Virus record (IMG/VR): IMGVR_UViG_3300045988_051605
Span: 1-46,631 of that record
Origin: a virus
Strand: one strand, 5' to 3'
DNA: 46,631 nt
Positions 56-44,385 of this stretch are shown here, in pieces (the first letter of the stretch is position 1; each line of letters opens with the position of its first letter). The notes under the pieces are model-generated. The model saw only the letters and a program-made list of their open reading frames with translations, did no database searches and was not told where the DNA came from. The position numbers and the translations under genes were made by a program.

Positions 56-309
56 TCACACCCAGCGCCTTCGGCAAGATTCTGTCGAAGACCATCAAGA
101 CCATGGGACCCAACAAGTTCTGTCGTTGGCTCCTCGACGACAACTTCGCATTCCGCAACGGGCAGGGCAAGATCATCCCCATGCAGGATGCAGTCAACCG
201 AGGAATCCTCATCCTCACCGAACGCATCGACCCTGCGGGTAAGATCAGGCCACAACTCCTCGTCACACCAGCAGGCCAGACCTACTTCGCTAACATCCTG
301 GGCAAGTAG
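1..309 (+). CDS. ant: Antirepressor, C-terminal KilAC-like part; continuation of the CDS that starts at 46142 (whole protein about 247 aa)
   Basis: Frame 1 is open from base 1 to TAG at 307..309. Translation AQRPVAALGKAIETAEGDLTPSAFGKILSKTIKTMGPNKFCRWLLDDNFAFRNGQGKIIPMQDAVNRGIL resembles phage Ant/KilAC C-terminal domains. Confidence 0.8.
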   Translation, partial: AQRPVAALGKAIETAEGDLTPSAFGKILSKTIKTMGPNKFCRWLLDDNFAFRNGQGKIIPMQDAVNRGILILTERIDPAGKIRPQLLVTPAGQTYFANILGK

Positions 310-314
310 ACATG

Positions 315-350
315 AGAAGAGACGACACCAAAGCAGGTGTCGTCTCTTCT
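315..350. terminator. Bidirectional stem-loop terminator between the convergent ant and tail genes
   Basis: 15-bp perfect stem agaagagacgacacc / ggtgtcgtctcttct with loop aaagca. A T-rich tract follows on the plus strand. Confidence 0.75.
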
Positions 351-356
351 TTACTG

Positions 357-2168
357 CTAGGCAGACTGAGCCTCGTGATGCTCAAAACCCCTGAGCGACA
401 GCTGCCCCAACGTAATCCCCGGAGGCGTTGGCAAGTCAGCCACTCGAGGCATGTCGAACAGATTAGCCAAGTCCCACACCGACGTATATGGCTCAGCCGA
501 CAGGTTCACACCCGACTCACCATACTCGACACTGCTGATCTGCCACGTGTACCTGTCGAACAACGCGCAAGTCCCAGCCATACGACCAAACACCTGAGGC
601 TTATCAGTCACAGGCTTATTCGCGGTAAACGCCAGGAGATCATCCATAATCTTCTTCATCGTCGTGCCCTCAGGCCACTTCTCAGTAGCTTTCTCGGGCA
701 ACGGGCTGTCGGTAAAAGCAGTCACATCAGCTGCAGTCACAGGCTCACGCTCGAAGTCATACGTGACATCCGTGTATGCCTCATTCAACGGTGTCATACC
801 AGACCACTCAAGACTCGTCTTCGTCCCCAAAGCAGACTGAGCAGCATACACGCACGCGGCATACGCCTTATCCACCGTGTCGATGTACGGGCTGCTGATC
901 TTCAACGGATCAGTCTTACGAGGATAACCCGTATAGAATGTCACAGTCTTCTCAACATAGGGATAACCCTCGCCACAAATACGCAAGAAAGAGTAATCGT
1001 TCTGTCCATCAGACTCAGCCAACCGATACGGCGCAAGACGCTTATTCAACATGCCCGTCACAGTCACCTTAATCTGATTCGGCTCATCCCCCACTTCAAC
1101 GAACACGCTGCCGCCCTCAGCGTTCCACTGCGCGGGGACAATCGGCTTATTATCCTTGCCGACAACAACGTAATAACTCTTACCGAACTCTTTCGGACCG
1201 GGAACAACGCCCGACTTCCCAAACCAGACCGAGCGTGCGCCACTAGGATAGTCGTACGGCATCACGCAAACGGGCTGCGACGTAATACTCTTCACATGAA
1301 CAGGAACCTCGAGAACAAACTCCTTCGTCTCACCAGCATCGACAGAAAGCACCTCAAGATCCTTCAAAGCCTCCAGATAAGGTTTATTCGGATCATAATT
1401 CGGGTACAGCACAATGGTAGGTGCCGGCATATTCTTTGAATAGGGGTTAAAAACAGGCTTGTCATCAACCCAATAAGCCGCCTCGGAATTACCACCACTA
1501 AACAGATCATAAAGAGTAGACTCACGATACGTGCATTCAATGCTCGACACGGGCTCAGACTGCTCGTACGAAATCTTGTAGTCAGACGTGTAGCCCTGAA
1601 GGCGAGTAAGGATCGTATGGTTCTTAAACACTACAACCGTGTCGTACACCCACGTGATCTGGAGGTCATTAGCCGACAGCCACGACTTCAATATAGACCA
1701 CAAGTTCCCCTTACCGCCGGGAAAATCATAGATATGATCAAAGATGGCACCAGCAATAGTGAAGAAACCCCCGGCGACAGAATTAGACTGGAAATTCTGC
1801 ACATAGATCTTCGGCACATCAACGACACCAGCAGCCTTAAAGAACCGCGTAATGATGGTCTTTAGCTCCGTATAGACCATAGGCTCAATCGTCGCCTCAA
1901 TATCCAGCAGATAAAAAGGATCATTCAACGTCACAGACCACGACCACGGCCCTGTCGTTAAAGCGCGTGCGACAGCATGAGTACGCCCAAAACGCAAGTC
2001 ACTCAGCACCACATCCTTGTTCACAACAAGAGCCGGCTCAATGCCTCCAGCACCCTCCAACGAGTACTCAGAGAACCCGCCAGACGACTGATCTCGATCT
2101 AGTGACACACCATCCTCCTGCACAGACCAGTTCGTAAGCTGGCCAGCAGGAATCCCAAAGACACGCAT
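357..2168 (-). CDS. Tail-associated protein (Tal-like minor tail/baseplate hub), 603 aa
   Basis: ORF track 357..2183. The ATG at 2168 overlaps the upstream TGA (TGATG). Position directly after TMP and Dit; size typical of siphovirus Tal. Confidence 0.6.
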   Translation of the reverse strand: MRVFGIPAGQLTNWSVQEDGVSLDRDQSSGGFSEYSLEGAGGIEPALVVNKDVVLSDLRFGRTHAVARALTTGPWSWSVTLNDPFYLLDIEATIEPMVYTELKTIITRFFKAAGVVDVPKIYVQNFQSNSVAGGFFTIAGAIFDHIYDFPGGKGNLWSILKSWLSANDLQITWVYDTVVVFKNHTILTRLQGYTSDYKISYEQSEPVSSIECTYRESTLYDLFSGGNSEAAYWVDDKPVFNPYSKNMPAPTIVLYPNYDPNKPYLEALKDLEVLSVDAGETKEFVLEVPVHVKSITSQPVCVMPYDYPSGARSVWFGKSGVVPGPKEFGKSYYVVVGKDNKPIVPAQWNAEGGSVFVEVGDEPNQIKVTVTGMLNKRLAPYRLAESDGQNDYSFLRICGEGYPYVEKTVTFYTGYPRKTDPLKISSPYIDTVDKAYAACVYAAQSALGTKTSLEWSGMTPLNEAYTDVTYDFEREPVTAADVTAFTDSPLPEKATEKWPEGTTMKKIMDDLLAFTANKPVTDKPQVFGRMAGTCALFDRYTWQISSVEYGESGVNLSAEPYTSVWDLANLFDMPRVADLPTPPGITLGQLSLRGFEHHEAQSA

Positions 2169-3109
2169 CACCATGAGTAGCACTCCTCCAAGGAAACCGA
2201 AGCAGAAAAATGACCACGAGCATTATTAACCGTAACGACACGGGCAGACCCAGGAACAACCTTCATATTCCCGCCACCGGCCGGATACGAGAACTCATAC
2301 TCGGACACACCAGCAGCAACCTGATCAGGATCATACGGCGTCACACGAAGACCACACCACGACAACTGGCCATCCTGGCCAGGGCGCATCGTAATCTCCC
2401 ACAAGCCCTCACTCATACTGAAAACCTGATTCTTCAACTTCGTAATAACAGTACCAGGCGTCCCACCATCGACACGCTGCAACACCCACTTAAATGGCTG
2501 CTTACCATCCTCATAGCCCGACGCAAAAAACGTCCCATAATAACCCTCAGGAACAACAACACGCTCCGTATACGCGCCAACCTTGCTCAACGCCAAAGAC
2601 GCCTGACGACCATTCAGCTTATTGAACACATGATCAAACTGATTATTAACAGCAAAAGGATCAGGCTTATACACAACAGTAGGATGCTGAGACTTCTCAT
2701 CAATACCATCCGACACAAACAAAGCCTGCTTCCCCCAATCGTTATACGCGAAAGGAGTACCAGCATGAACATGCAAATAAGGCAAACCCATCAAAGGCGA
2801 CAACATGTTATTGAACGAGAACGGGTCAGCATACGACACCCACTCATCCCCACGATTCAAAAACAAACGACGAAACAACTCAGCCTGATCACGATTCAAA
2901 TACGACCAATTCAACTCATACTTCCGATGACCATACACAGAACCATTAATCGACGCAAAACCATTCAGCAACGTCGTCGAATCACTACCGAACTGCACAC
3001 TATCTGCTGTCGGGGACTCATCCGGAGCCGGAAACCACGACATAAACTTCCCAACCGCGAAATAAACCTCACGAGTCGAACAACCCCTAGTAAACACCAC
3101 GGTTACCAC
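2168..3109 (-). CDS. Distal tail protein (Dit-like); start uncertain (GTG 3109/3100 or ATG 3043)
   Basis: ORF track; lies immediately downstream of the tape measure gene. GAGGA box lies just upstream of the GTG cluster. Confidence 0.5.
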   Translation of the reverse strand: MVTVVFTRGCSTREVYFAVGKFMSWFPAPDESPTADSVQFGSDSTTLLNGFASINGSVYGHRKYELNWSYLNRDQAELFRRLFLNRGDEWVSYADPFSFNNMLSPLMGLPYLHVHAGTPFAYNDWGKQALFVSDGIDEKSQHPTVVYKPDPFAVNNQFDHVFNKLNGRQASLALSKVGAYTERVVVPEGYYGTFFASGYEDGKQPFKWVLQRVDGGTPGTVITKLKNQVFSMSEGLWEITMRPGQDGQLSWCGLRVTPYDPDQVAAGVSEYEFSYPAGGGNMKVVPGSARVVTVNNARGHFSASVSLEECYSW

Positions 3110-6100
3110 TCCTCACATTATTGCTATCCACATTCTTACTAATCGCACGGCCATTCAACATGACTGTCGTCGAAACAGCCCGGACAAGCTCATTAAACTG
3201 TGCTGGATTAATTGTAACAAGCCCATCACCAGCGCCCGCGGAATAACCACCACCAGACATTACCGGCACCTGCATTGTGTTAAGAGCATTCATGAAGCCC
3301 TTACCGTAGAAATCGACAGCCGGCTGACTAATCACGTACTCACCACTACGCACACTAAACAGCCCGTTGCCATTCGTAGCCAGCAGATTGTCGACATTCG
3401 GATTAGCAGGAGGCCGACCCGGCACCAAACCACCAGAAGCAAAACCCCTAGACGGAATCAGACCACCATCAAAGAACTGATAACCATCAGCCCAAGGACC
3501 CGCCTTACCCCAATGACGCTTACCAGTCAAAACCTGACTCAAATCAGGAACAACCCGCATCCGAACAGTAATCGTAGACTGCGACGGCTGCACCGGAACA
3601 GTCACAGGATCAGCATGAATCCCATCAATAGCACCCTGTGTCGCACCGACAGTCCCATTATCCGTCACATTCTCACGAACATCACGAGGAACCTGACCAA
3701 TAGTCCCAGTCAAGCTATCAAACGCACCAGCAAGCTCCGTAACCTCGCCCTGGTTGTAGCCCAGCTGAGTCACCTGAGAAATAAACTGCTGCTTCAAGGA
3801 CTGCGTATACGCCTCGATCTCCTGTGTCGAATGGCCGGCAGCAGCATAAGCCTCAATCAGACCAATCATCTGAGACTGCAACGACCGCAAAGCCTCACGG
3901 TTAGCAATAGCTGCTTCCGTGTACCCCTTCAACGCAAACTGGCCAGCCTGAAGAACCGAAATCTCCTGGCTGTTCTCGCCAATCTTCGTCTGAGACTCAT
4001 TGATCTTCTGCTTCGCCTCATCGATATCAGTCTGAGTAGACTGCATACGCTCCTCGTCGCCGTACTTCACAGCGACAGCATGGAAGAACTCAGCATCATG
4101 CAACTCCTGCTGAGCCTTACGCATATCCGACGCAAGCTTCTCATTCTCCTTACGAAGATTCTTGATCTTGCTCGTCGTATTCTCGACATCCTTGCGCAAA
4201 GAGTTGAGGCCCTTATGGTAATTATCCTGAGCCGTCGTCGAACGCCACCACGACTGCAGCGCCTTGTCGAGCGCTGACTTCAACCTCGACAGGAAGTCCT
4301 CAAAGATCTCGGCAGCAGTCTTCGTCTCCTTACGAGCACGCGACGACGGTGAATGGCCGCCACCACCACCACCAGAACGAGGCGCGCGTTCGCGCCCACC
4401 GCCGCCACCAGACGAACGCTGAGGCTTTGCACGGAAATTCGCGCCACTAAACGCCGACTTCCCATTGTTACGCAAAGCAAACGTAGGCGTACGAATCTTC
4501 GACTTCTGGCCAAGAGTAAACGACCCCTTGCCCGTCTTCGACTTCGCGCCACCGATCTGCGACATGTAGCCCTGAATCGACTGCCAAATAGCCTGAACCT
4601 TGCCCAAGAACCCCTGAGCCTGGCCCACCGCGTTCGCCGCATTACCAACCATCTCATTCAACGACGCATCTGTCGCAGAATGATCCACCTCACCCGACTG
4701 ATACGGCTGGGCAATAATCGCCGCCATCGTGTCACGCTGAGCCTCAAACGCGCTCATGTCGAAGCCCTGGGCCGACAGGTAGTCAATCGTGTCCTGAATC
4801 GACTGCTGAGCGTACTGGTACGCCTCCTCACCAGTCAAACCCATCTCCTCGATACCAGCCGCAGCAGCATTACCCATCGCCTGGAAATAGTCCTCAATAG
4901 CAGCAATGTTCGCCTGACCCTCAGCAGAATTTGGGTCCATCGACGTACCATTGGTCTGCATCGACTCATACACCTGCTGCAACGCACTATCAAGCGCAGC
5001 CGCAGCATCCGTCGATGAAAACATTTCATCAAGGACAGAACGAAGAACCTCACCAAGGTCCTTGAACTCGTTCTTGGCGTCACCGATCTTGAACGACGCC
5101 TCCTCTGAGCTGTCGCCCGCCTCAGTCATCTCCTGACCAAACAGCTGGGCATCATTCAGGGCATCGCGCATTGCGCCGCCGACACCCTCAGTCTGGCTCT
5201 TCACCTCGTTCAAGGCACTGATCTGCCCCTCAAACTGCGAAGCAATATCCGCACGCTTAGTCGCGTAGGAGGGAGACTCAGGATCGAGCTTAGAGATCAT
5301 CTCATTCTTGCGTGTCTCAAGCTGAGCGATGTAGCCATCCACGTATGCGTCAGCAGCGGCTTTACCGCCACCCTCAGACTCCGACGTCGTCGCCAACTTA
5401 ATGTACTGCGCGTAAGAGAAGCCCATGTCAACAAGCGCCTGCTTGACATCCTTCGACATGTTCTTAAACGAATCAGAACCCTGAATAGCGTCAGAAATCA
5501 GCGCCTGCGTGTGCTCACCGATCTTCAGCGTCGAATAGCCGAACGCTTCAGCCTGAGCCTGTGTCGTCTGAACAACCTGTCCGGACTTATCCACGTAGTA
5601 ACCCAACGCCTCACCATTCGACGTGAGAGTCTGGCCGTTCTGCTGGATCGTCGCATTCAACTCAGCGAAAGAAGTCTGAGCACCAGAGCCAACTTCCTTC
5701 GTATCCTCAGCCAAAGCCTTCAGAATAGCCGACGAGCCACCGACAGCGGCCTTCAGATTCTCAGCCTTCTCCGACGCCCCCGTAAATGAGTCACCAAGGT
5801 ACGTCGCAGCAACCGAAGCAGCAGTAATCGCGCCCGTAATAGCCAGACCCCACGGCCCGCCAAACATAGCCATCAAGCCAGAGCCAACAGCAGACAGCTT
5901 CGACAAAGCACCGACAGCCTGGCCAGCGCCAGCAGCCACCTGAGCGCCCGTCGTTACAGCAGACGCCGCAGCCTGAGCTTCCTTCGCAGCAGCTGCCTTA
6001 CCCGCGGCCATAGCGACAGCCGAGTCCGACGCCGCAAGACGCTGATTTGCGGCAGCAGCAGCATTCGCCGTACCCACATTAGAAGCAAGCGACCCATCAT

Positions 6101-8264: not shown

Positions 8265-8281
8265 GTCTTAATCCTCTGCAT

Positions 8282-8325
8282 AGAATTGTCCCTGGTACCA
8301 CTTCAATGATACCAGGGACAATTCT
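8282..8325. other. 16-bp perfect stem-loop between the chaperone and tape measure genes
   Basis: agaattgtccctggta / taccagggacaattct with a 12-nt loop. It overlaps the stop codon of the shifted-frame chaperone ORF. Confidence 0.6.
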
Positions 8326-9348: not shown

Positions 9349-9409
9349 GATGTCTACTCCAATCAGATATGAGAATACCCCCGCACCTCGGAGGTACAGG
9401 GGTATTCTA

Positions 9410-9955: not shown

Positions 9956-9957
9956 AA

Positions 9958-10131: not shown

Positions 10132-10132
10132 A

Positions 10133-11883: not shown

Positions 11884-11898
11884 GATCTAAGTATAGCT

Positions 11899-33167: not shown

Positions 33168-33168
33168 C

Positions 33169-35022: not shown

Positions 35023-35051
35023 GAAAGAAACAACAACGAAAGGAAACTACT

Positions 35052-36767: not shown

Positions 36768-37041
36768 GCTGGTTATCCAGGTTCCACCTGGGTTCATGTT
36801 TACCTCTGTCGAACAAGGCAAAATCCATAAGACAAAGTGGGAGGTTAAGACTGCCTCGGATCAGATCGTGCGCCACACTTCGTGTGTCCCGTTGTTTGGG
36901 ACACGGGAGCTGTGGAAGGTTGTCGAGGAAGGCGACTTTCTGGTTTTCATTAAATCGCCTCTAGATGACCTGCATCAATTTGCATGGAATCTATACGTCA
37001 TGAAGGAAGAGCAGTACAAGGAATGGGCATCTCATGAGTGA
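36754..37041 (+). CDS. Hypothetical protein, 95 aa
   Basis: Start MSKDKLVI at 36754, overlapping the deaminase 3' end by 14 nt. Confidence 0.55.
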   Translation: MSKDKLVIQVPPGFMFTSVEQGKIHKTKWEVKTASDQIVRHTSCVPLFGTRELWKVVEEGDFLVFIKSPLDDLHQFAWNLYVMKEEQYKEWASHE

Positions 37042-37738
37042 CATCTACGATTCTCTTATCCGGGAACTGTCGAAGCCCTCGCCGCGTGACAGGCAACGTA
37101 AGGTAGGGCCGTCTGAGTTGGGAGACCTCTGCGAGCGTTGTCTTGCAGAGAAGCTGCTTGGCATCCACGAGGACGAGAACAACCATCCCCTCGCGCCGAT
37201 GATTGGCACGGCCTTCCACCTCTACCTAGAGAATGTCATTGGCCTCAAGGGGTACCTCAAGGAGACTAAGGTAACTGTCGGCACCATCGACAGGTACGGA
37301 GACATCTCTGGTACCTGTGATGGCTTCGACGTGGCAACAGGGCATATCGTTGACTACAAAGTGTTGTCGAAGAAGAAGATCAAGGCCTTCTCGTCAGCAA
37401 CCTTCTTCAATGAACATCGAGAGCCAGAGTTCTACTCGGACTCTCGCACTAAGCTTCAGCTCAAGAAGTACTTCTATCAAATGATGCTGTACGGTTTGGG
37501 CATGGAGAACGCTGGTTACGAGGTGAACTACTGCTCACTTGTCCTCTTCCCGAGGGATTGTACCATCGAGAGTGTCATGCAAGCCAGTCATGAGCTATGC
37601 TTTAAGTACGACAGGGCAGCAGCTCTTGCTGTCCTCGAACGAGCCAACCAAATCTTCCAGTGGGCCGATGAAAATCGGGACCATATTGGAGAACTCGACA
37701 GCCATCCCGGCTGTTACTACTGTGCTTTTAAGCGGTAG
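37034..37738 (+). CDS. PD-(D/E)xK nuclease of the Cas4/RecB-exonuclease type, 234 aa
   Basis: GTCDGFD...IVDYK catalytic pattern. Cys pairs CERC (N-terminal) and CYYC (C-terminal) are compatible with an Fe-S cluster. Confidence 0.65.
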   Translation: MSDIYDSLIRELSKPSPRDRQRKVGPSELGDLCERCLAEKLLGIHEDENNHPLAPMIGTAFHLYLENVIGLKGYLKETKVTVGTIDRYGDISGTCDGFDVATGHIVDYKVLSKKKIKAFSSATFFNEHREPEFYSDSRTKLQLKKYFYQMMLYGLGMENAGYEVNYCSLVLFPRDCTIESVMQASHELCFKYDRAAALAVLERANQIFQWADENRDHIGELDSHPGCYYCAFKR

Positions 37739-37755
37739 AGAAGAAAGGAGAACAC

Positions 37756-38538
37756 ATGGGAAAGTTTGATAGCTTCCTCAAGAATCTTAACATCGAAGTG
37801 TCTGACCCTCGTGTCACCACCCCTAAGATCAAGATGTTGATCTATGGTATGTCCGGAACGGGAAAGACCTCACTCGCAGTCTCTGCCTCTAAGGTTGAAG
37901 AGTTAGGTCCGGTCCTATATATCGACCTTGAACGTGGCACTGCCCCCGCTGCTAAGTACGGCGACTTGGACAATATGCTCGTTGTCCAGCCCGCCTCCTA
38001 CCAGCAATTCGCGGAACTGCTGGTTAAGATCAGCAAGAATCAGGGCATGGAGTTCAAGACTATTGTCATCGATACCATTGACCGCTTGCAGGAACTCATC
38101 AAGTTCCACTTTAAGAGCATAAATCCCAAAGACAGTTTTGCCATGTGGGATGCTACGTATGAGAAGATTATTGATCTTGTCAACAAGATCAGCTTTGACC
38201 TCGGACTGAACATCATTTGCATCACGCATGAAGCACGTGAAGTGAATGACATCTCCCGCCTGTCACTGATCGGCCCGTCGTTTGAGGGCAAGCAAAGCCT
38301 AAAGAAGCTGCCGGGCATCTTCGACATCATCGGTCGTACGACGTGGGAGGATATTGGGGATGACGACAACGAAGAGCTGGTTACAGTTCTGACTGTCCGG
38401 TCTTCGTCTGAAGTGCTGGCAAAGACACGATTCGATCCGATGCCATCCATGTCTGGAAACACGACAATGGGGAAGATCATGGGTTGGGTCCATGAACATT
38501 GCGGAACCCAAGGAGTAAAGGAGAAGGATGACGACTGA
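37756..38538 (+). CDS. RecA-like AAA ATPase (AAA_24/Sak4-like), 260 aa
   Basis: Walker A GMSGTGKTS and Walker B-like TIVIDTID. RBS gaaaggagaacac then ATG. Confidence 0.7.
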   Translation: MGKFDSFLKNLNIEVSDPRVTTPKIKMLIYGMSGTGKTSLAVSASKVEELGPVLYIDLERGTAPAAKYGDLDNMLVVQPASYQQFAELLVKISKNQGMEFKTIVIDTIDRLQELIKFHFKSINPKDSFAMWDATYEKIIDLVNKISFDLGLNIICITHEAREVNDISRLSLIGPSFEGKQSLKKLPGIFDIIGRTTWEDIGDDDNEELVTVLTVRSSSEVLAKTRFDPMPSMSGNTTMGKIMGWVHEHCGTQGVKEKDDD

Positions 38539-38737
38539 GTACCTGTCGATCACTCACGTGATTGAAATAACAGGTATCAACCGTACGACGATCCTGTACC
38601 GCATACGAGAAAACTCCAAAGGTTTCCCACAGCCGGATGCTATCATTCGACACGACAAGCTAGTCACCTACGGGTGGCTGCCTGAGACCATCAACAACTA
38701 CATCATCACCAACAAGAAGGAGAACAACAATGATTGA
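38528..38737 (+). CDS. Small HTH DNA-binding protein (excisionase/MerR-like HTH_17 style), 69 aa
   Basis: YLSITHVIEITGINRTTILYRIRE helix-turn-helix pattern. Confidence 0.5.
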   Translation: MTTEYLSITHVIEITGINRTTILYRIRENSKGFPQPDAIIRHDKLVTYGWLPETINNYIITNKKENNND

Positions 38738-39203
38738 TTTCGATGCACTGATGAGCCTGGACGTTGCCGAGTCCATGTCTTTCAAGCCCCTGCCCAAGGG
38801 CCTGTACAAGGTGACCGTTGATGCCTGTGAACTGGGAGAATCCAAGAAGGGCAAGCCCATGTACACGGTTGACTTCACAGTTCCTACCACCGACGACAAG
38901 GGTAACCCCACTGTGCGCATGCTTCGTTACTGGCTGGTCATGACCACTAAGAATGGTCTGCACTGGGACCTCCCTAAGTTCTGCACTGCGTCAGGTAATC
39001 CTTGGCCTACCGAGCGCACGGAACGCACCACCGACTACTACTACCAGGTTGCGCTCGACATTGTTGGCAAGACGGCGACGATCACCGTTGATGTCGAGGA
39101 GTCCGAGTACAATGGTGAGACCCGCAAGCGCAACAACATCAAGAAGGTCGAATGGGACGATGTGAAGGCGAAGAAGTCTAAGGCTTCCAAGATCGAACTC
39201 TGA
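38730..39203 (+). CDS. DUF669-like putative ssDNA-binding protein, 157 aa
   Basis: Position immediately after the AAA_24-type ATPase, which is the common AAA_24 + DUF669 pairing. RBS aaggagaacaaca then ATG. Confidence 0.45.
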   Translation: MIDFDALMSLDVAESMSFKPLPKGLYKVTVDACELGESKKGKPMYTVDFTVPTTDDKGNPTVRMLRYWLVMTTKNGLHWDLPKFCTASGNPWPTERTERTTDYYYQVALDIVGKTATITVDVEESEYNGETRKRNNIKKVEWDDVKAKKSKASKIEL

Positions 39204-39219
39204 CCGTCAACTAACTAGG

Positions 39220-39252
39220 CGGGGCTGCACTTCGACAAGAGGTGCAGCCCCG
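39220..39252 (+). terminator. Stem-loop upstream of the primase-helicase gene
   Basis: 11-bp stem cggggctgcac / gtgcagccccg with an 11-nt loop. Confidence 0.5.
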
Positions 39253-39283
39253 TCTTACAATAGGCAGATACGAAAGGAGAGGC

Positions 39284-41599
39284 ATGAACCTCACAGAGTT
39301 TTTCCGAGCAGTCTTCCCAGACGACGAAGGCTGGACACCTATTATTCTCAAGGGTCCGATGGGAGGCCTCACAAACTTCCACTGGTTCAACCTGCCTGCA
39401 CAACTCGACAAGATGGTGGCTTACACCAAGGCACACGCTGACCTTGATGTGTATTACTCGCCTTTCCTGTACACGAAGCCCCCGGCCCTGTCGAACACCC
39501 GCCACGCGGCCAAGGATAATGTCATCCGCGCTGCGTGCGTGTGGTCAGATGGTGATGACTGCCCTGTCGACAAGCTGAGGATTCAGCCTTCCATCCTGGT
39601 TCAGACCAGTGAGAAGCACTGGCAGGGATACTGGCTGCTCGACGACGCCGGGGACTTGTCGAACGACATGCTGGAAGCCCTCTCGCGAGCGCTCTATGAG
39701 GATCACCGCAATGACGGCATGGATCGCGGCTGGCCCCTGTCGAAGAAGCTTAGAGTCCCGTTCACGCACAACTGCAAGCGAGTGGACCCGTGGGAAATCA
39801 CACTCGCCACCAGCGATGAGAAGATCACTGCTGCTGAGTTCGCAGCCGAGTATCCCCCTGTCGAGCGAATGGGTATCGAGGAAGAAGACTTCCCCACTGA
39901 TATCCCCACCATGTACGAAGTCCTCGGCATGGTCAACCGCTCGTACATTACAGACCTGGCTACAGATGACACGTTCATTGACGAGGAAGACCGCTCCTCG
40001 AAAATGTACCACCTCGAATGTACACTCTGGGAGGAAGGCTGCTCGATTGTCGAAGCCTTCGCTGTCGTGCGCGGGACGGAATTCAACAAGTTCGCTATGG
40101 ACGGGCGCGGCGACGGCTACCTGTGGAAGCAGATCAACCGGGATCATGCCCGATGGAAGGCACAGCACAACGGGCCATCTGAGAAGGAGCTGGAAGCTGC
40201 TACCAAGGTCGGCTCCTCGTATCTTCTCAGTGAAGCACGGGAGCTAACCCTCCAGAATGTGAACTTCCTGCATGAGAACGAGCAGGAACCTATGGGTCTC
40301 TTCGTCGATCAGTTCGCCGTGTGGGCTGCAACGAAGTCAGCAATGGCACCCAAGCAATTCCACTACGCGGGCGCTCTCGCCGTCCTCTCCTCAGTGTTCG
40401 CGAAGTATGCTTTCCTGCCCATCAACGTCCAGCGAATGCCATTGAACCTATACTTCCTGGTACTGGGACGCACCACCCAGTCCCGCAAGTCAACATCACT
40501 GCGCCTCGCAGAAGGCATTATGCGGGACGTTGCTGTAGGTGTTGGTAAGGGAACAGACTCCTACATTGCACCTGAAGATTCGACAGGCGAGGCACTGTCG
40601 GCATACCTTCGCACCAAGCCGAAGGAGTCTGGCCTGTACGCAATCGACGAGGTGCAAGACTTCTTCGCACATGCGGCACAAAAGAGCAGCTATATGTCCT
40701 CTATGATGCCCTTCCTTACCAAGAGCTACGATGGATATATCCCTGCTGTCGCACGTAAGGACAAGGGCGGTAAGGTCGCCTACCAGACGGCGACACCGTA
40801 CTACATGACGTTCTACGGGACAGGTATTCTTGATCAGTCTGCGAAGCACCTGACGAAAGAACGAGTTGAGTCTGGCTTTACGCCGCGCTGCCTTGTTGTT
40901 GTCGATGAACGGGACCACTACATCACGTCTTCACAGGATGTGAAGCTGGTTGCTGTTAATCCTTCGACAGGTAAGATTGCCGACAAGCAGCGTGACTTCA
41001 TGTTGTCGAACCTCATCAAGGCAACGACTAAGTTCGACACACACTTCAGCGCACGCCAGTCCAGGTCCCTAGCACACGAGGAAGTCCGTGTCCCTGTCGA
41101 GTTTGAGCCGGGCGTGTTTGAGCGGTGGATCGAGTTCTCTGAGGAAGCCAAGGTGATGGCTGCACAACATGTCCTAAGTAGCCGTGAGCTGTTCCCTGGC
41201 ACCGAGCGTATGACGTTCTCTGTCTTGCGTATCGCTGCCCTGCTTGCCATGTACAATGGCCCTAATGCTCATGGTGGTGTCGTTGTCAAGATGCGACACA
41301 TGCTCAAGGCCATTGCCTTAGCTCCTATCTGGATGGCGTCGAACGAGGTGTTTATTCACCACGTCAAGAACTCCAACTTCAGCAACAAGGTGGATAAGTT
41401 CATCAGCTTCATTGCTCGCTCGGAGAATGGGCTTGTGCCGATCCCGAAGATTCTTCTGAAGTTCCAGTCGGAAATCAACGGAATGAAGGAGCTGAAAGAA
41501 ATCATCACATATGCTCAGGCGCGCGGTGTCGTCCAGGAAGTTATTCAAGGGAAAAAGAATAGTGATCGTTTCATCAAATACATAGGAGGCCAGGTATGA
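39284..41599 (+). CDS. Bifunctional primase-polymerase / helicase-like replication protein, 771 aa
   Basis: Start MNLTEFF with RBS cgaaaggagaggc then ATG. The N-terminal prim-pol-like region has an acidic WSDGDD motif. The central ATPase region has GRTTQSRKS and LYAIDEVQDF. Confidence 0.6.
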   Translation: MNLTEFFRAVFPDDEGWTPIILKGPMGGLTNFHWFNLPAQLDKMVAYTKAHADLDVYYSPFLYTKPPALSNTRHAAKDNVIRAACVWSDGDDCPVDKLRIQPSILVQTSEKHWQGYWLLDDAGDLSNDMLEALSRALYEDHRNDGMDRGWPLSKKLRVPFTHNCKRVDPWEITLATSDEKITAAEFAAEYPPVERMGIEEEDFPTDIPTMYEVLGMVNRSYITDLATDDTFIDEEDRSSKMYHLECTLWEEGCSIVEAFAVVRGTEFNKFAMDGRGDGYLWKQINRDHARWKAQHNGPSEKELEAATKVGSSYLLSEARELTLQNVNFLHENEQEPMGLFVDQFAVWAATKSAMAPKQFHYAGALAVLSSVFAKYAFLPINVQRMPLNLYFLVLGRTTQSRKSTSLRLAEGIMRDVAVGVGKGTDSYIAPEDSTGEALSAYLRTKPKESGLYAIDEVQDFFAHAAQKSSYMSSMMPFLTKSYDGYIPAVARKDKGGKVAYQTATPYYMTFYGTGILDQSAKHLTKERVESGFTPRCLVVVDERDHYITSSQDVKLVAVNPSTGKIADKQRDFMLSNLIKATTKFDTHFSARQSRSLAHEEVRVPVEFEPGVFERWIEFSEEAKVMAAQHVLSSRELFPGTERMTFSVLRIAALLAMYNGPNAHGGVVVKMRHMLKAIALAPIWMASNEVFIHHVKNSNFSNKVDKFISFIARSENGLVPIPKILLKFQSEINGMKELKEIITYAQARGVVQEVIQGKKNSDRFIKYIGGQV

Positions 41600-43653
41600 A
41601 GATTCTGACTAACAGCGTAGACAAGCTGCCTATGCTTGTCACAGTTCTGCTAAAGAGGGCTAGGGGCGTCTCAGGCCTTCCTGCTGGCGCACCTATCGAA
41701 GTCGTTGATGACCCACAGGCCGAAGACATCAGGGTCACACTCGGCACTGTGAAGGGCTATAAGGGCGACGCGTACAAGACGCTCTCGCCTAAGCAGATCG
41801 TCAGCAACCCGCAAGCGATCCTGTTCCTTGCTCAGGCGCTTCAGTATGGTTACCTTGGGCCTGTTGATCCTGGCCTGGAACTCGGTAAGGATTGGGTGAT
41901 CTGGGAGGGGCAGCACATCTCCTTCAAGAAGGGGAGCGTCATTGCCCTCGACATCGAGTCCTCCGGTGACATCGACAACGACACGTTCGCGGCTGGTCGC
42001 ATCCTGTCGATTGCCTTGTGGAATGGCAAGTTCGGTGTGGTGATCCCCGAGGAGCTTGCCGAGACTCCCGAGTCTGCTGAGCTGATTGAGCGCCTGTGCC
42101 GAGACTGCATTGTCGTCTGCCATAATGGCACGTTCGACATGCCGTACCTGTCGAAGCGGCTTGGCATCAATGTGTACCACCATGAGGACACGCTGCTGAT
42201 GCACTTCGTGCTCGACAACCTAGCAGGTGAGCATGGCTTGAAGCCTCTGGCTCGTCGCTGGTTGCGTGCTGCTGACTGGGATTCTGATGCAAAGTCGTAC
42301 CTAAAGCGTGGAGCATACTTTGAGAACATACCCAGGGAAAAGCTCTATGAGTACAACCTGATGGACACCGTATACACATACAAGCTGTATGAGTATTTCC
42401 TGCCATTACTGAAGAGCAGCGGGAAGTACAAGTACTACCATTACCGTATGCAGGTCACGAAGGTTTTGATCGACGTGCAGTTGAATGGTGTGGCTGTGTC
42501 GCTTGGTGCTCTTGATGAGCTGGAAGAGAAGTATAAGCGTCAGTGTGACGAGTACCTGGCAGTGTTGCATAGTATTGCGGGTGGGGAGTTTAATCCTCAG
42601 TCGCCTAAGCAGATCAAGGATTACTTCAACTCCAGGGGTGTGTCGTCTCCGTCGTTCGATTCGGATCACCTGAAGAAGCTGCGACGCGAAGGCAAGGAGA
42701 CAGGGTTCATCGACGCTCTGCTTGCTTACCGTTATGCGGCTAAGGTGATTGGTTCGTACATTACGAACGTACGCCGTAAGGTCGGTAAAGATGGTCGTAT
42801 TCATCCGTACTACCTGCCCCACGGGGCAAAAACTGGCCGCCTGTCGGCTAAGGGGCCAGCGATTCAGACGATGGGACGCGATAGTGGTATTAAGCGTGCT
42901 CTTGTCGCTGCTCCTGGTTGCAAGATCATCTCTTGTGACTATTCTCAGGCAGAGCTTCGTACTGTCGCTGAGATCGCAAGTGATGAGGCTATGATTGCCG
43001 CGTTTCAGCCGGGTGCACCTGACTTCTTCGATGACTTGATGACGAAGATTTGGCCTGACGAGTTCCCTAATATTGAAGCGTACGAGGAGTTTAAACATGA
43101 ACATCCAAAGACTGCTAAGAACCGACGCGCACTAGTCAAGAGCGTAGTGTACGGCCTTGGGTACGGACGAGGTGTTAAAGCAATCGCAACAGCACTAGAA
43201 CAACCCATCGACAACGCACAGCACGTCGTCGATCAGTACCTGGGAGCATACCCAGGCCTACGCGACTGGCAGACACGAGTTCGACACAGCGTAGGCAGGA
43301 AAGAAGAAGACGATGAGCGCCGCACGAAGTTCGGCATGACATACAACCCACTCTTCATTGCCGACGCCAACTACGCCTCGACACAGAACGAAGCATTGGC
43401 CTTCGTGCCACAATCGACAGCCAATGATATCTGCCTTCACGCGGCTGTCGAAGTGAACAAAAAGGTAGGCCAGTACGGGGCAAAGATTGTTGGCCTCGTC
43501 CACGATGCTATCTACGTCGAATGTCCTGAAGAAAACATCAAAGAATGCGGGACCGTGATGGAACGCGAGATGTCCAAGGCAGCGACACTCGTCTTCAACC
43601 GCGTGCCCTTCGTGGCAGAAGCAGAGGTCGGCAGTAATTGGGAGGAAGTATGA
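41596..43653 (+). CDS. polA: Family A DNA polymerase with 3'-5' exonuclease domain, 685 aa
   Basis: IALDIESSGD (Exo I), DYSQAELR (motif A), KSVVYGLGYG (motif B) and VHDAIYVE (motif C). Confidence 0.9.
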   Translation: MKILTNSVDKLPMLVTVLLKRARGVSGLPAGAPIEVVDDPQAEDIRVTLGTVKGYKGDAYKTLSPKQIVSNPQAILFLAQALQYGYLGPVDPGLELGKDWVIWEGQHISFKKGSVIALDIESSGDIDNDTFAAGRILSIALWNGKFGVVIPEELAETPESAELIERLCRDCIVVCHNGTFDMPYLSKRLGINVYHHEDTLLMHFVLDNLAGEHGLKPLARRWLRAADWDSDAKSYLKRGAYFENIPREKLYEYNLMDTVYTYKLYEYFLPLLKSSGKYKYYHYRMQVTKVLIDVQLNGVAVSLGALDELEEKYKRQCDEYLAVLHSIAGGEFNPQSPKQIKDYFNSRGVSSPSFDSDHLKKLRREGKETGFIDALLAYRYAAKVIGSYITNVRRKVGKDGRIHPYYLPHGAKTGRLSAKGPAIQTMGRDSGIKRALVAAPGCKIISCDYSQAELRTVAEIASDEAMIAAFQPGAPDFFDDLMTKIWPDEFPNIEAYEEFKHEHPKTAKNRRALVKSVVYGLGYGRGVKAIATALEQPIDNAQHVVDQYLGAYPGLRDWQTRVRHSVGRKEEDDERRTKFGMTYNPLFIADANYASTQNEALAFVPQSTANDICLHAAVEVNKKVGQYGAKIVGLVHDAIYVECPEENIKECGTVMEREMSKAATLVFNRVPFVAEAEVGSNWEEV

Positions 43654-43946
43654 TCGACATCCACGCCTACGAGCAAGCCCCCTGTGTCGGAGTACCCGTC
43701 GAGCTTTTCTTCGACTCAGGATTCTACTACCAGGTGTTAAAGGTCTGTTGCTCCCAGTGCCCAGTCAAAGAACTATGTCTTCAAGACTGTCTTGCACTCG
43801 AAGACGTACCTGTCGATGGCAAACGCTACCGGTCGGGAGTCTTCGGTGGAACGACACCAGCTGACAGAAACAGACTGTGCGAGACGAAGTATGAAATTCT
43901 GAACGATAATTGGGAGGAGAAAAATGAAAACCGTCATCGCGATTGA
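43650..43946 (+). CDS. whiB: WhiB-family Fe-S transcription factor, 98 aa
   Basis: Cys pattern C...CSQCPVKELC (C-x2-C-x5-C) and a GVFGG turn. ATGA overlap with the polA stop. Confidence 0.8.
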   Translation: MIDIHAYEQAPCVGVPVELFFDSGFYYQVLKVCCSQCPVKELCLQDCLALEDVPVDGKRYRSGVFGGTTPADRNRLCETKYEILNDNWEEKNENRHRD

Positions 43947-44385
43947 TCCTGGTGTCAACACCGGCCTCGTTGTTGCTCGTGTCGAAGAGGGGGTGGAGAT
44001 TCTGCACTTCGATCAGTTCATCTGTTCGACACACACGCAGACAGTGGGGCTGATCAAGCGATACCTTGACCAGTACCCTGGTGCTGTCGTTGTGTGCGAG
44101 CAGTTCGATCTGCGGCCGGGTAATAAGTTCATGGCTGACCTCACACCAGTGAAGGTGAACGCCGTGTTGGACTGGCTTGTCGATGATGTCCACTACCAGA
44201 CCCCAGCTCAGGCGAAAGGTCTCGTGAAGGACGCTGTGCTAAAAAACCTGGGATGGTGGCTTACCGGCAAGGATGTCGGCTACAAGGATGCGAATGATGT
44301 ACGCGACGCATTCAGGCATCTCGTGTACTACCTCGTGCACGAGATGCGACATAAGTGGACACTCGAGGGCGGCTGGCCGCGGTAA
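43924..44385 (+). CDS. ruvC: RuvC-like Holliday junction resolvase, 153 aa
   Basis: N-terminal VIAIDPG catalytic Asp motif; further acidic residues CEQFD and DANDVRDA. Confidence 0.75.
   Translation: MKTVIAIDPGVNTGLVVARVEEGVEILHFDQFICSTHTQTVGLIKRYLDQYPGAVVVCEQFDLRPGNKFMADLTPVKVNAVLDWLVDDVHYQTPAQAKGLVKDAVLKNLGWWLTGKDVGYKDANDVRDAFRHLVYYLVHEMRHKWTLEGGWPR

What the first reader, a model, noticed from the sequence alone, without database searches (positions are those of the whole stretch)
83..43987. Octamer TGTCGAAG is massively over-represented, co-oriented with transcription, and found in two reading frames
Counts are by eye.

TGTCGAAG on the plus strand, 24 sites starting at:
83, 4757, 12033, 28409, 28483, 28529, 28857, 30082, 30222, 31608, 32084, 33219, 34386, 35987, 36463, 36736, 36755, 37068, 37365, 39738, 40048, 42149, 43446, 43980.

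Its complement CTTCGACA on the plus strand, 8 sites starting at:
5451, 5898, 7992, 8769, 8958, 15671, 19929, 39230.

Expectation and longer forms:
- A random 8-mer is expected about 0.7 times per strand in 46.6 kb with equal base frequencies.
- The 10-mer TGTCGAAGCC occurs 6 times and the 9-mer CTGTCGAAG 11 times.

Orientation:
- 29 of the 32 sites point the same way as local transcription.
- That is 18 in plus-strand genes, 4 in the array downstream of a plus promoter, and 7 as the complement in minus-strand genes.
- Only 3 sites are antisense.

Reading frame:
- Inside genes the motif sits in two different frames. One is xTG-TCG-AAG, giving LSK/VSK/MSK, including three start contexts ATGTCGAAG. 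The other is xxT-GTC-GAA-G, giving VE.
- This argues for selection on the DNA or RNA rather than on a peptide.

The polarity and dispersal recall the stoperators of cluster A mycobacteriophages and polar motifs such as Chi or KOPS. No matching repressor is evident here.
Basis: seen in the sequence. Interest (0 to 1): 0.75.

Follow-up and report, generated by a model that had tools for sequence, protein, structure and literature searches.

The report
Phage genome saturated with TGTCG word
This phage and all its relatives keep one five-letter DNA word (TGTCG, or CGACA on the other strand) at about four times its expected frequency on both strands; it is probably a dense field of protein-binding sites, possibly for the host cell-division regulator WhiA.

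Summary
The octamer is real: 36 copies (25 on +, 11 on −) against about 1.8 in dinucleotide shuffles, and it is the commonest 8-mer. It is only the longest common form of a 5-mer, TGTCG/CGACA, with 383 copies, one per 122 bp.

- **Not a coding effect.** Codon-preserving shuffles give 137±10 against 363 observed. The word is enriched 2.3–3.5-fold in every usable frame, sense and antisense, and fills about 39% (sense) and 26% (antisense) of synonymous opportunities.
- **No polarity.** The same nulls predict the observed 4:1 sense:antisense ratio (binomial P=0.60).
- **A lineage trait.** CGACA ranks 1 of 512 pentamers in every relative tested, including a 61–63% GC subclade. It is unremarkable in Arthrobacter phage Amigo, in Bifidobacterium DNA and in Rothia-associated DNA.
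- **Evidence of selection.** Sites are conserved above phase-matched controls, yet turn over heavily.
- **A leader array.** A subgroup carries 7–14 co-oriented copies of G-SSSS-TGTCG-AA-S in the early leader.
- **Best reading.** Isolated binding sites for a monomeric helix-turn-helix (HTH) DNA-binding domain that reads GACA. The best candidate is host WhiA (GACAC; mycobacterial cGACACGc), perhaps working with the phage's WhiB-like (Wbl) protein. This is unproven.
- **Main rivals.** A Chi-like nuclease signal, or an unidentified phage-encoded reader.

The parts
1..46631 (.). Genome-wide field of the pentamer TGTCG/CGACA: 171 copies on +, 212 on −, one per 122 bp. Density is 7-15 per kb in nearly all core genes.
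   Evidence: Counts and order-0 and maximal-order Markov expectations. Codon-aware nulls give 363 against 137±10. z=27, rank 1 of 512. Per-gene densities. Poisson-like spacing, CV 1.01, with no preferred pair spacing.
83..43987 (.). 36 copies of the octamer TGTCGAAG. On +: 83, 4757, 12033, 15709, 28409, 28483, 28529, 28857, 30082, 30222, 31608, 32084, 33219, 34386, 35987, 36463, 36736, 36755, 37068, 37365, 39738, 40048, 42149, 43446, 43980. On − (as CTTCGACA): 5451, 5898, 7992, 8769, 8958, 15671, 19929, 34507, 38319, 39230, 40962.
   Evidence: There are 25 sense (13 in frame 1, 12 in frame 2), 6 antisense and 5 noncoding sites.
28395..28920 (+). Leader array: 10 TGTCG, all on the + strand and none on −, in noncoding DNA of 61% GC between two promoter-like sites. 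The sequence between sites is not conserved among relatives.
   Evidence: Relatives of the same subgroup carry 7-14 co-oriented sites with 0-2 opposite. No consistent RNA structure. No Rfam family.
28404..28416 (+). Array site 1, GGGGCTGTCGAAG.
   Evidence: PWM 17.9 bits.
28478..28490 (+). Array site 2, GCTGTGTCGAAGG context.
28524..28536 (+). Array site 3, GGGGGTGTCGAAG.
28617..28629 (+). Degenerate array unit GGGGCTGCCGAAG, with TGCCG in place of TGTCG.
   Evidence: Read directly from the sequence.
28649..28661 (+). Array site 4, AGGGCTGTCGAAC.
28714..28726 (+). Array site 5, ATAGCTGTCGTAT.
28743..28755 (+). Array site 6, GCCCCTGTCGTTA.
28768..28780 (+). Array site 7, CTCCCTGTCGTCT.
28852..28864 (+). 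Array site 8, GCACCTGTCGAAG.
28869..28881 (+). Array site 9, GCCCCTGTCGTAT.
28896..28908 (+). Array site 10, ACCCCTGTCGTAT.
28280..28308 (+). Promoter-like site P1 (TTGACT-17-TAAACT) upstream of the array. It is conserved in relatives.
   Evidence: Conserved copies are visible in L164, L167 and L275.
29047..29074 (+). Promoter-like site P2 (TTGACC-16-TAAACT) downstream of the array, ahead of the first early gene at 29344.
27780..27960 (.). AT-rich stretch (22% GC) in the divergent intergenic region. It is free of the motif and is a possible unwinding element.
   Evidence: An 894-bp motif-free gap runs from 27258 to 28152.
43638..43946 (+). Gene for a WhiB-like (Wbl) protein, the candidate partner of the proposed reader WhiA.
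   Evidence: Pfam Whib PF02467, E=3.5e-8, 34.3 bits against a cut-off of 23.6. Only weak similarity to solved WhiB4, WhiB7 and WhiB structures.

Best explanation
Shown. TGTCGAAG is the commonest long form of a strand-symmetric DNA word. Its core is TGTCG, which reads C-GACA-[G/C] on the other strand. This phage lineage holds the word at about 39% (sense) and 26% (antisense) of all synonymous opportunities, in every frame and on both strands. Sites are conserved above background but turn over heavily.

Inferred. The word is a dense field of single, orientation-independent binding sites for a monomeric helix-turn-helix protein that reads GACA.

The best candidate is the host regulator WhiA. Its known site is the asymmetric GACAC, with weaker binding to GACAG. 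The mycobacterial consensus is cGACACGc or CGACACGCC. WhiA works together with WhiB-family proteins, and the phage encodes one.

About 380 sites per genome copy could act in either of two ways:
- as a sink that titrates WhiA away from host cell-division and replication promoters; or
- as a platform that brings WhiA, the Wbl protein and RNA polymerase onto phage DNA.

The leader array of G-SSSS-TGTCG-AA-S sites, found in one subgroup, would be a high-affinity cluster of the same sites.
For: DNA-level enrichment:
- 363 sites in genes against 137±10 (synonymous shuffle) and 120±11 (codon permutation). Observed/expected is 2.3-3.5 in each of the five usable frame and strand classes.
- z=27 and rank 1 of 512 pentamers. 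The next two exceptional pentamers are GACAG (z 12.0) and GACAC (z 11.7). The top 4-mer is GACA (z 18).

Strand symmetry: 2.27x sense against 2.23x antisense.

Site geometry: spacing is Poisson-like (CV 1.01), with no dyads or fixed pair spacing, as expected for a monomer.

Lineage trait:
- Order-0 O/E is 2.4-4.6 in 147 related IMG/VR loci.
- CGACA ranks 1 under the codon-aware null in the high-GC subclade and in array-less members.
- It ranks 340 in Arthrobacter phage Amigo and 348 in a Rothia-associated chromosomal contig.
- Candidate host DNA is not enriched, with O/E 0.7-1.7. A transcription-factor site needs no host-wide enrichment.

Selection:
- Intact 5-mer: 0.74 against 0.61, and 0.40 against 0.25, for phase-matched controls.
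- The motif's third-position T is conserved at 0.67 against 0.50, and A at 0.49 against 0.35.

Array consensus from 88 sites: G(81%)-S4-TGTCG-A(72%)-A(73%)-S. On the other strand this is CGACA followed by a GC-rich extension, like the M. tuberculosis site GACACGCC (PMC13473873).

WhiA properties from the literature:
- It binds as a monomer to an asymmetric 5-mer. Orientation is irrelevant to function. Weak footprints occur at GACAG (PMC3781837).
- It reads mainly GACA through a sigma-region-4-like HTH (PMC10243135).
- The M. smegmatis motif is cGACACGc and an M. tuberculosis ChIP consensus is CGACACGCCGn (PMC13473873).

The phage encodes a Wbl protein. There is a precedent for a phage interfering with the WhiB2 cell-division pathway: WhiBTM4 (PMC6282962).
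Against: - No binding data exist. The link to WhiA rests on motif resemblance, found after comparison with about a dozen known motifs, so a chance match is a real possibility. The array consensus TGTCGAA is also identical to the Bacillus Spo0A 0A box.
- The base after CGACA is G (35-52%) more often than the consensus C (25-39%).
- The AA/TT extension of the array sites is not part of any WhiA consensus.
- Most sites are intragenic rather than upstream of -35 elements. The promoter-like sites found have no adjacent motif.
- Arthrobacter phage Amigo also encodes a WhiB-like protein but shows no enrichment.
- The phage Wbl is divergent and cannot be assigned to the WhiB/WhiB2 class.
- The host is unidentified.
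- The array is absent from part of the family although the genome-wide enrichment persists.
Confidence: 0.33

Rival explanations
1. Chi-like signal. TGTCG, or its complement, is the sequence at which the host's end-processing helicase-nuclease (RecBCD, AddAB or AdnAB type) switches from degradation to recombination. The phage has accumulated it to protect and recombine its linear or concatemeric DNA. The leader array is a protective cluster.
For: There is a documented precedent. In phages LLS and P1 the host Chi octamer is the most frequent octamer of the genome. The next most frequent octamers overlap it. Sites 'come and go', sit in coding DNA, and are clustered and co-oriented near one end (PMC12315714).

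Here the octamer and its overlapping neighbours top the 8-mer list. Sites turn over. A co-oriented noncoding cluster exists.

Chi can be as short as 5 nt in Bacillus subtilis (own knowledge).

The assembly is circular with no fixed end. That is compatible with permuted ends, for which both orientations would be useful.
Against: - Chi-rich phages are strongly polar (20:3 in LLS, 32:0 in MD8) and lack their own recombination module (PMC12315714).
- Here the enrichment is strand-symmetric in both arms.
- The phage carries Sak4-like AAA_24, DUF669 SSB, a Cas4-like exonuclease and a RuvC-like protein.
- None of the candidate host DNA sampled is enriched, though the true host is unknown.
- One site per 122 bp far exceeds any known Chi density.
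- No Chi is known for actinobacterial AdnAB (own knowledge).
Confidence: 0.2
2. The word is read by an unidentified phage-encoded factor rather than by WhiA. This could be a genome-coating or regulatory DNA-binding protein with a nucleation cluster in the leader, working like phi29 p6 but sequence-specific. It could instead be a DNA-modifying enzyme with a 5-bp asymmetric target whose protective coverage grows with site density.
For: The trait follows the phage lineage, not the candidate hosts. It is strand-symmetric and consists of single sites. An array of extended direct sites exists. About 25 phage proteins have no recognisable family. Short asymmetric 5-mers are typical targets of type IIS/III-like methyltransferases (own knowledge).
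Against: - No methyltransferase, glycosylase or transglycosylase, or other modification enzyme was found with Pfam, PHROGs or NCBIfam.
- The motif's C shows no excess C-to-T change, as 5-methylcytosine would produce.
- No candidate binder was identified.
- There is no precedent for selection to increase the number of modification sites.
Confidence: 0.2
3. No function. A lineage-specific neutral drive, either context-dependent mutation or biased mismatch repair and gene conversion during frequent recombination, pushes sequences toward TGTCG.
For: Enrichment is uniform over nearly all core genes and weak in a few small, probably recently acquired ORFs, like a genome signature that needs time to build. 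Turnover is heavy. The commonest neighbours are the transition neighbours TGTTG, TGTCA and CGTCG.
Against: - No one-mismatch neighbour is depleted. The transition neighbours are themselves mildly enriched.
- The motif's C has no elevated substitution rate.
- A symmetric drive does not explain a strictly co-oriented array with an extended 13-bp consensus.
- Noncoding DNA outside the array is less enriched than coding DNA, at about 4 per kb against 8 per kb.
- No repair endonuclease or methyltransferase gene was found.
Confidence: 0.1
4. Stoperator-like network. A phage repressor binds asymmetric 13-bp sites oriented with transcription and blocks elongation, as in cluster A mycobacteriophages.
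For: - The array consensus G-SSSS-TGTCG-AAG resembles the L5 stoperator GGTGGMTGTCAAG (consensus from own knowledge).
- The array lies downstream of an early promoter and is co-oriented with it.
- About 22 sites score at least 14 bits with the array matrix; of the 17 outside the leader array, 14 point with transcription and 3 against.
- An antirepressor-type gene is present.
Against: - No gp71 homologue and no integrase or partition genes were found.
- The orientation ratio equals the coding null.
- The enriched unit is the bare pentamer, in both orientations and inside genes.
- The array is missing in part of the family.
Confidence: 0.05
5. Recognition sites of the phage primase (39242-41599), multiplied to secure frequent priming.
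For: A large primase gene lies next to the polymerase gene (synteny with Amigo). Known primases start at short template words, such as T7's GTC-containing pentamers (own knowledge). TGTCG contains GTC.
Against: - In T7 the primase pentamers are not notably enriched, at 1.0-2.2x.
- Priming sites are needed only on lagging-strand templates, but enrichment here is strand-symmetric.
- A 5-mer already occurs often enough by chance.
Confidence: 0.05
6. Pure by-product of codon usage, amino-acid composition or base composition.
For: The sense bias of the octamer is such a by-product. GTC, GAC and TCG are common codons.
Against: - 363 against 137±10, with a maximum of 173 in 300 shuffles.
- Phase-specific Markov order 2 gives 220 against 97 (sense) and 138 against 62 (antisense). 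Even order 3 gives 220 against 167 and 138 against 97.
- All frames are enriched.
- The same-GC relative Amigo lacks the enrichment.
Confidence: 0.02

Closest known systems
WhiA binding sites of Actinobacteria (GACAC; mycobacterial GACACGCC / cGACACGc)
   Same: Both are short, asymmetric and bound by a monomer, and orientation is irrelevant to function. The core is GACA. The 5' C and a GC-rich 3' extension match the mycobacterial consensus. GACAG is a known weaker variant. WhiA acts together with a WhiB-family protein, and the phage encodes one (PMC3781837, PMC10243135, PMC13473873).
   Different: Known sites number a few hundred per bacterial genome, lie at promoters, and are not over-represented. 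Here there are about 380 in 46.6 kb, mostly inside genes. G is at least as common as C after CGACA, and the array sites carry an extra AA/TT extension. No binding has been shown.
Chi-rich phages (LLS, P1, Pseudomonas phage MD8)
   Same: A short host-read word is the most frequent oligomer of the phage genome. It is embedded in coding DNA in several frames, with overlapping near-copies, turnover, and a co-oriented cluster (PMC12315714).
   Different: Those phages are strongly polar, have 20-50 sites, lack their own recombination genes, and use a word that is also enriched in the host. Here the word is strand-symmetric and ten times denser, a recombination module is present, and no enrichment was seen in any candidate host DNA.
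Stoperators of cluster A mycobacteriophages
   Same: Both are asymmetric sites dispersed over the genome, with a similar look (G-rich half, TGTC, AAG). There is a co-oriented cluster downstream of an early promoter.
   Different: Stoperators are 13-mers at about 24-36 copies, mostly intergenic, truly co-oriented with transcription, and read by gp71. None of these features was met outside the array, and there is no gp71 homologue.
Spo0A 0A boxes (TGTCGAA) in Bacillus phages phi29 and Nf
   Same: The sequence is identical to the array consensus TGTCG-A-A. phi29 uses host-regulator sites near early promoters and genome ends to silence itself (PMC2731898).
   Different: Spo0A exists only in endospore-forming Firmicutes. 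This phage carries actinobacterial markers (Wbl, VG64 family, relatives among Arthrobacter, Streptomyces and Clavibacter phages). 0A boxes are few and paired 3 bp apart, not hundreds of single sites.
Uptake sequences (USS/DUS) and the HIP1 palindrome (own knowledge)
   Same: These are short words kept at very high copy number in all reading frames by DNA-level selection.
   Different: They are properties of bacterial chromosomes, shared secondarily by their phages. They are 8-12 nt long. HIP1 is palindromic. No host-level enrichment was found here.

Membership tests
WhiA/WhiB target sites | Asymmetric core GACAC (cGACACGc in mycobacteria), read mainly through GACA | tested here: inconclusive
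   The top exceptional words are CGACA (z 27), GACAG (z 12.0) and GACAC (z 11.7), and the top 4-mer is GACA (z 18). After CGACA, however, G (35-52%) is at least as common as C (25-39%).
WhiA/WhiB target sites | Monomer binding: single sites with no dyad symmetry, and orientation not tied to function | tested here: met
   Poisson-like spacing and no preferred direct or inverted pair distance. Equal enrichment on both strands.
WhiA/WhiB target sites | A WhiB-family partner and a WhiA-encoding (actinobacterial) host | tested here: inconclusive
   The phage Wbl gene is present but divergent. The host is not identified. WhiA is widespread in Gram-positive bacteria (PMC3781837).
WhiA/WhiB target sites | Site placed just upstream of the -35 element of a target promoter | tested here: not met
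   Most sites are intragenic. P1 and P2 have no adjacent motif.
WhiA/WhiB target sites | Physical binding by WhiA | not testable with these tools
   Needs EMSA, DAP-seq or ChIP-seq.
Chi (RecBCD/AddAB recognition sequence) | Over-represented in the host core genome and skewed to the leading strand | tested here: inconclusive
   Candidate host DNA is not enriched: Bifidobacterium L177, Rothia-associated L181-L229 including a fragment of an 851-kb contig, and other actinobacterial flanks. The true host is unknown.
Chi (RecBCD/AddAB recognition sequence) | Orientation-dependent: phage copies predominantly in one orientation relative to the entry end | tested here: not met
   Sense and antisense are enriched equally in both arms. 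Only the leader array is co-oriented.
Chi (RecBCD/AddAB recognition sequence) | Chi-rich phages lack their own recombination module and nuclease inhibitor | tested here: not met
   AAA_24 (Sak4-like), DUF669, a Cas4-like exonuclease and a RuvC-like protein are present.
Cluster A stoperators | gp71-type repressor encoded by the phage | tested here: not met
   tblastn of L5 gp71 against the window gives no hit better than E=0.3.
Cluster A stoperators | About 24-36 asymmetric 13-bp sites, mostly intergenic, co-oriented with transcription | tested here: not met
   383 pentamers in both orientations, mostly in genes. The orientation of the longer forms equals the coding null.
Spo0A 0A boxes | Sequence TGTCGAA | tested here: met
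   The array consensus is TGTCG-A(72%)-A(73%). There are 65 TGTCGAA in the window. PMC2731898 gives the 0A-box consensus.
Spo0A 0A boxes | Host is an endospore-forming Firmicute encoding Spo0A | tested here: not met
   The phage has a Wbl protein, and Wbl proteins are exclusive to Actinobacteria (PMC6282962). It also has the mycobacteriophage VG64 family and its relatives are actinophages. The choline-binding repeats of the endolysin are the only Firmicute-like trait.
KOPS / polar chromosome-architecture motifs | Strong strand skew relative to replication or translocation direction | tested here: not met
   No skew remains after correction for coding.

The most novel reading that the evidence does not exclude
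A whole family of actinobacteriophages has rewritten its synonymous sites to carry hundreds of recognition cores for WhiA, the conserved regulator of cell division and replication. The replicating phage DNA itself, together with a phage WhiB-like protein, would then capture or redeploy this host regulator. This would be a transcription-factor sink or platform encoded in the genome's composition rather than in a gene.
Probability: 0.3. Interest if true: 0.85.

Novelty: new variant of a known kind. Interest (0 to 1): 0.68.

Why it matters
Selection strong enough to fix one pentamer at roughly a third of all synonymous opportunities, across about 46 kb and throughout a widespread human-associated phage family, implies a DNA-reading process of major importance to these phages. 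No annotated gene explains it.

It is directly testable with purified proteins.

If it is a Chi-like signal, it would define the first such sequence for an actinobacterial end-processing enzyme.

Either way, the word is a sharp compositional marker for recognising this phage family in metagenomes. It is also a caution for codon-based host prediction.

Tried and rejected
- **Host identification.**
  - Megablast to known phages found nothing.
  - An endolysin scan of species genomes found only choline-binding repeats in two Firmicute MAGs.
  - Amidase homologues led to Bifidobacteriaceae prophages at about 50% identity, with Bifidobacterium confirmed by GcpE names.
  - The Rothia-specific lysin PolaR is only 32% identical.
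  - A search with the cell-wall-binding domain gave 6 unnamed hits.
  - The host remains unknown.
- **RNA-level function of the array.** Motif bases are no more unpaired than average (34% against 39%). No Rfam family matches.
- **Fixed genome ends at the array.** Contig ends fall at different places, several inside the array, so these are assembly breaks.
- **Precursor-word depletion or CpG hypermutability** (methylation signature). Not seen.
- **Per-position phylogenetic footprint.** The excess conservation is too weak and noisy to define motif borders.
- **Collection-wide pattern scans for unrelated phages with the same array.**
  - The second found three family members plus five low-density contigs, probably chance hits.
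  - L308 and L313 have high raw TGTCG density but only 1.6x over dinucleotide shuffles, and they have different structural genes.
- **L5 gp71 homology.** None.
- **Primase-site precedent in T7.** None.
- **Simulation-based Markov null.** It timed out and was replaced by analytic expectations.
- **Structure prediction of unknown early proteins.** Not attempted, because a DNA-binding fold would not tie a protein to this word.

Full report
**What the window is.** The 46,631-base window is a circularly assembled phage genome. Its first 55 bases repeat at the end, and the arbitrary start lies inside a Bro-N/KilAC antirepressor gene. GC content is 53.5%.
- Structural and lysis genes run leftward from about 27,400 to 357. 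They include the tape measure 3087-8264, capsid 11941-13083, large terminase 15789-17732 and an endolysin with Amidase_2 plus choline-binding repeats, 21477-22514.
- Replication genes run rightward from 29,344 to 44,385. They include an SNF2 helicase, dCMP deaminase, a Cas4-like exonuclease, AAA_24/Sak4, a DUF669 SSB, primase, family-A polymerase, a WhiB-like protein and a RuvC-like protein.
- The nearest named relatives are Arthrobacter, Clavibacter and Streptomyces phages at 35-42% amino-acid identity. The gene order matches Arthrobacter phage Amigo.
- About 150 close relatives exist in IMG/VR; their sample IDs look like human-microbiome projects, which I did not verify.

**The observation.** TGTCGAAG occurs 25 times on + and 11 times on −. 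It is the commonest 8-mer.
- It occurs 36 times against 1.8±1.2 in dinucleotide-preserving shuffles.
- In genes it occurs 30 times against 6.7±2.2 under synonymous-codon shuffling.
- A codon-phase-specific third-order Markov model predicts 7.2 sense and 2.0 antisense, against 24 and 6 observed.
- The two reading frames are confirmed: 13 L/M/V-S-K and 12 V-E.
- The three 'start contexts' are internal Met codons.

**The real unit is a pentamer.** TGTCG occurs 171 times on + and 212 times on −, 383 in all, one per 122 bp.
- 171 of 320 GTCG are preceded by T, and 171 of 309 TGTC are followed by G.
- Strand-collapsed O/E is 3.97, against 2.40 for the next pentamer. No one-mismatch neighbour is depleted.

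With amino-acid sequence and per-gene codon usage held fixed, genes contain 363 copies against 137±10 (maximum 173 in 300 shuffles). Codon permutation gives 120±11.
- Every usable frame is enriched 2.3-3.5-fold, sense and antisense.
- 39% of sense and 26% of antisense synonymous opportunities are realised, against 13% and 10% expected.
- In a scan of all 4- to 6-mers under the same null, CGACA stands alone at z=27. It is followed by its own extensions GACAG (12.0) and GACAC (11.7). The top 4-mer is GACA (18.1). The top 6-mers are CGACAG, CGACAC and TCGACA.

The octamer is enriched a further threefold or so beyond what the pentamer's sub-words predict. The preferred long form is therefore (C/G)TGTCGAA(G).

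**Polarity is an artefact.**
- The nulls predict 5.4 sense and 1.3 antisense octamers, the same 4:1 ratio as observed. The binomial P for at least 25 of 31 is 0.60.
- For the pentamer, a phase-specific order-2 model gives 220 against 97 (sense) and 138 against 62 (antisense), that is 2.27x and 2.23x.
- The sense strand is simply rich in GAAG.

Sites are spaced like a Poisson process (CV 1.01), with no preferred direct or inverted pair distance.

**A lineage trait, apparently not a host trait.**
- All 147 related loci have order-0 O/E of 2.4-4.6. This includes a subclade with 61-63% GC. Four unrelated phages fetched in the same scan have 0.2-1.0.
- Under the codon-aware null, CGACA ranks 1 of 512 in three high-GC members and in two members that lack the array.
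- It ranks 340 in Amigo (same GC, also WhiB-encoding), 348 in a fragment of an 851-kb contig carrying a Rothia-type prophage lysin, and 230 in an unrelated small phage.
- Candidate host DNA has O/E of 0.7-1.7: Bifidobacterium (identity confirmed by protein names), about 40 contigs bearing the Rothia-specific lysin PolaR, and other actinobacterial prophage flanks.
- The phage's own host could not be identified. The Wbl protein points to Actinobacteria. The amidase is closest to Bifidobacteriaceae prophage lysins at about 50% identity. Abundance, GC content and Micrococcaceae-phage relatives suggest Rothia.

**Selection and turnover.**
- Intact sites are shared with relatives more often than phase-matched control 5-mers: 0.74 against 0.61 at 88% identity or more, and 0.40 against 0.25 below 80%.
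- At third codon positions, the motif's T is conserved at 0.67 against 0.50, and its complement A at 0.49 against 0.35.
- Even so, 60% of sites are lost in the distant relatives while density is maintained.
- Changes are mostly ordinary transitions at degenerate positions. The motif's C shows no excess C-to-T change.
- Density is 7-15 per kb in nearly all core genes and near zero in a few small ORFs, for example 35072-35692.
- Noncoding DNA outside the array is only mildly enriched, at about 4 per kb.

**The array.** Between a conserved promoter-like site (28280-28308) and a second one (29047-29074) lie 10 TGTCG, all on +, with none on −.
- Relatives of the same subgroup have 7-14 co-oriented copies with unrelated sequence between them.
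- 88 sites give the consensus G(81%)-SSSS-TGTCG-A(72%)-A(73%)-S.
- The motif shows no consistent position in predicted RNA structure, and no Rfam family matches.
- Metagenome contigs often break inside the array.
- A more distant subgroup lacks the array altogether and has other repeats next to the AT-rich stretch. It still has the genome-wide enrichment. The array is therefore an add-on, not the cause.

**What it most likely is.** The properties are: a short asymmetric core, single sites, strand symmetry, lineage specificity, no host-wide enrichment, and extended direct sites in one regulatory region. Together they fit binding sites for a monomeric DNA-binding protein.

Read on the other strand the word is C-GACA-[G/C]. 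WhiA is the actinobacterial partner of WhiB.
- It binds as a monomer to the asymmetric GACAC through a sigma-region-4-like helix-turn-helix that reads mainly GACA (PMC10243135).
- It footprints weakly on GACAG and functions in either orientation (PMC3781837).
- In mycobacteria its consensus is GACACGCC, CGACACGCCGn or cGACACGc (PMC13473873). That is CGACA plus a GC-rich extension, like the reverse strand of the array sites.

The phage encodes a Wbl protein. A mycobacteriophage Wbl is known to derail WhiB2-controlled septation (PMC6282962). I therefore propose that the genome is a WhiA sink or a WhiA-Wbl platform.

This is inference from resemblance. The weaknesses are these:
- The sixth base is G at least as often as C.
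- The AA extension is unexplained.
- Sites are intragenic.
- Amigo has a Wbl without any enrichment.
- The phage Wbl is unclassifiable.
- The array consensus also coincides exactly with the Bacillus Spo0A box TGTCGAA, which shows how easily short motifs match.

**Rivals.**
- *Chi-like signal.* This has the best precedent: in LLS and P1, Chi is the top octamer, with terminal co-oriented clusters (PMC12315714). It predicts polarity, absence of a phage recombination module and host enrichment. None of these was found.
- *An unidentified phage binder or modifying enzyme.* This remains possible, but no such gene was detected.
- *A neutral drive.* This does not explain the oriented, extended array.
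- *Stoperators.* These fail on repressor, copy number, location and polarity.
- *Primase sites.* These fail on symmetry and lack a precedent in T7.
- *Coding artefact.* This is excluded.

**Verdict.** The finding is real and larger than reported, its polarity claim is wrong, and its function is unproven. It resembles known over-represented words such as Chi, uptake sequences and stoperators. It meets the defining tests of none of them.

Noticed in passing
window 1-55 and 46577-46631: The first 55 bases are repeated exactly at the end. The window is a circular assembly with an arbitrary start inside a Bro-N/KilAC antirepressor gene (46142 → 309).
   Followed up: yes
L004-L013, L020-L032 (TerL match 2562 nt against 1941); L126-L129, L135-L138, L142, L146 (PolA match about 3000 nt against 2055): In many relatives the large-terminase and DNA-polymerase matches are about 620 and about 950 nt longer than in the window. 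This suggests inteins or introns inserted in these genes.
   Followed up: no
window, whole coding sequence: Several hexamers are strongly avoided under the codon-aware null: GAGCTC 0 against 13.8, CTCCGC/GCGGAG 1 against 21.7, GAGCCC 3 against 22.5, CGCCAG 9 against 34.6. This is possibly restriction-site avoidance.
   Followed up: no
L230-L239 (about 14.3-kb contigs, 54.5% GC, found through a distant PolaR-like lysin): An unrelated small phage group has its own exceptional words, CGCTA and CTAGC (core GCTA/CGCTAG). They occur at about 8-9 per kb and are about 2x over a synonymous-shuffle null, although CTAG is usually avoided. CGCTA is also the second most exceptional pentamer in family member L275 (z 6.9).
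   Followed up: partly
L176 430-680: A 6.7-kb, 63% GC element shares the early gene 29633-30106 (53% identity). It carries about 12 TGGTACC iterons beside an AT-rich patch and a primase-type gene. It looks like a satellite or plasmid-like replicon.
   Followed up: no
L275 1210-1600: In the array-less subgroup the AT-rich stretch is followed by about 20 tandem CTTTACC(TT) units, a likely iteron-type origin. The window has no equivalent.
   Followed up: no
window 27318-27380 and 27600-27690: Direct repeats ATAGAAAGGTGGGTATG (2 copies) and GCGTG..CTCACGAAG.AC (2 copies) lie at the end of the leftward gene block. Related GGGTATG...ACACGAAG repeats occur in L275. They may be terminase or regulatory sites.
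   Followed up: no
window 24429-24514 (−): A tRNA-Leu(CAA), which reads TTG. TTG-TCG is one of the codon pairs that create the motif.
   Followed up: no
window 35072-35692, 22496-22783, 18670-19191: These ORFs carry almost none of the motif (0, 0 and 1 copy), in contrast to 7-15 per kb elsewhere. They may be recent acquisitions or miscalled frames. A 948-bp motif-free gap spans 34947-35895.
   Followed up: partly
window 21477-22514 (−): The endolysin combines an amidase closest to Bifidobacteriaceae prophage lysins with choline-binding repeats, whose only genome hits were Firmicute MAGs. This is an unusual mix for a phage with a WhiB-like gene.
   Followed up: partly
window 28320-28920: Besides TGTCG, the array is punctuated by a second recurring word, AGCAAG(G/C)C or (T/C)TAGC(A/G)AG, often 7-10 nt after a TGTCG. 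In relatives the form TGTCGAAGGCG(Y)TAG recurs.
   Followed up: no
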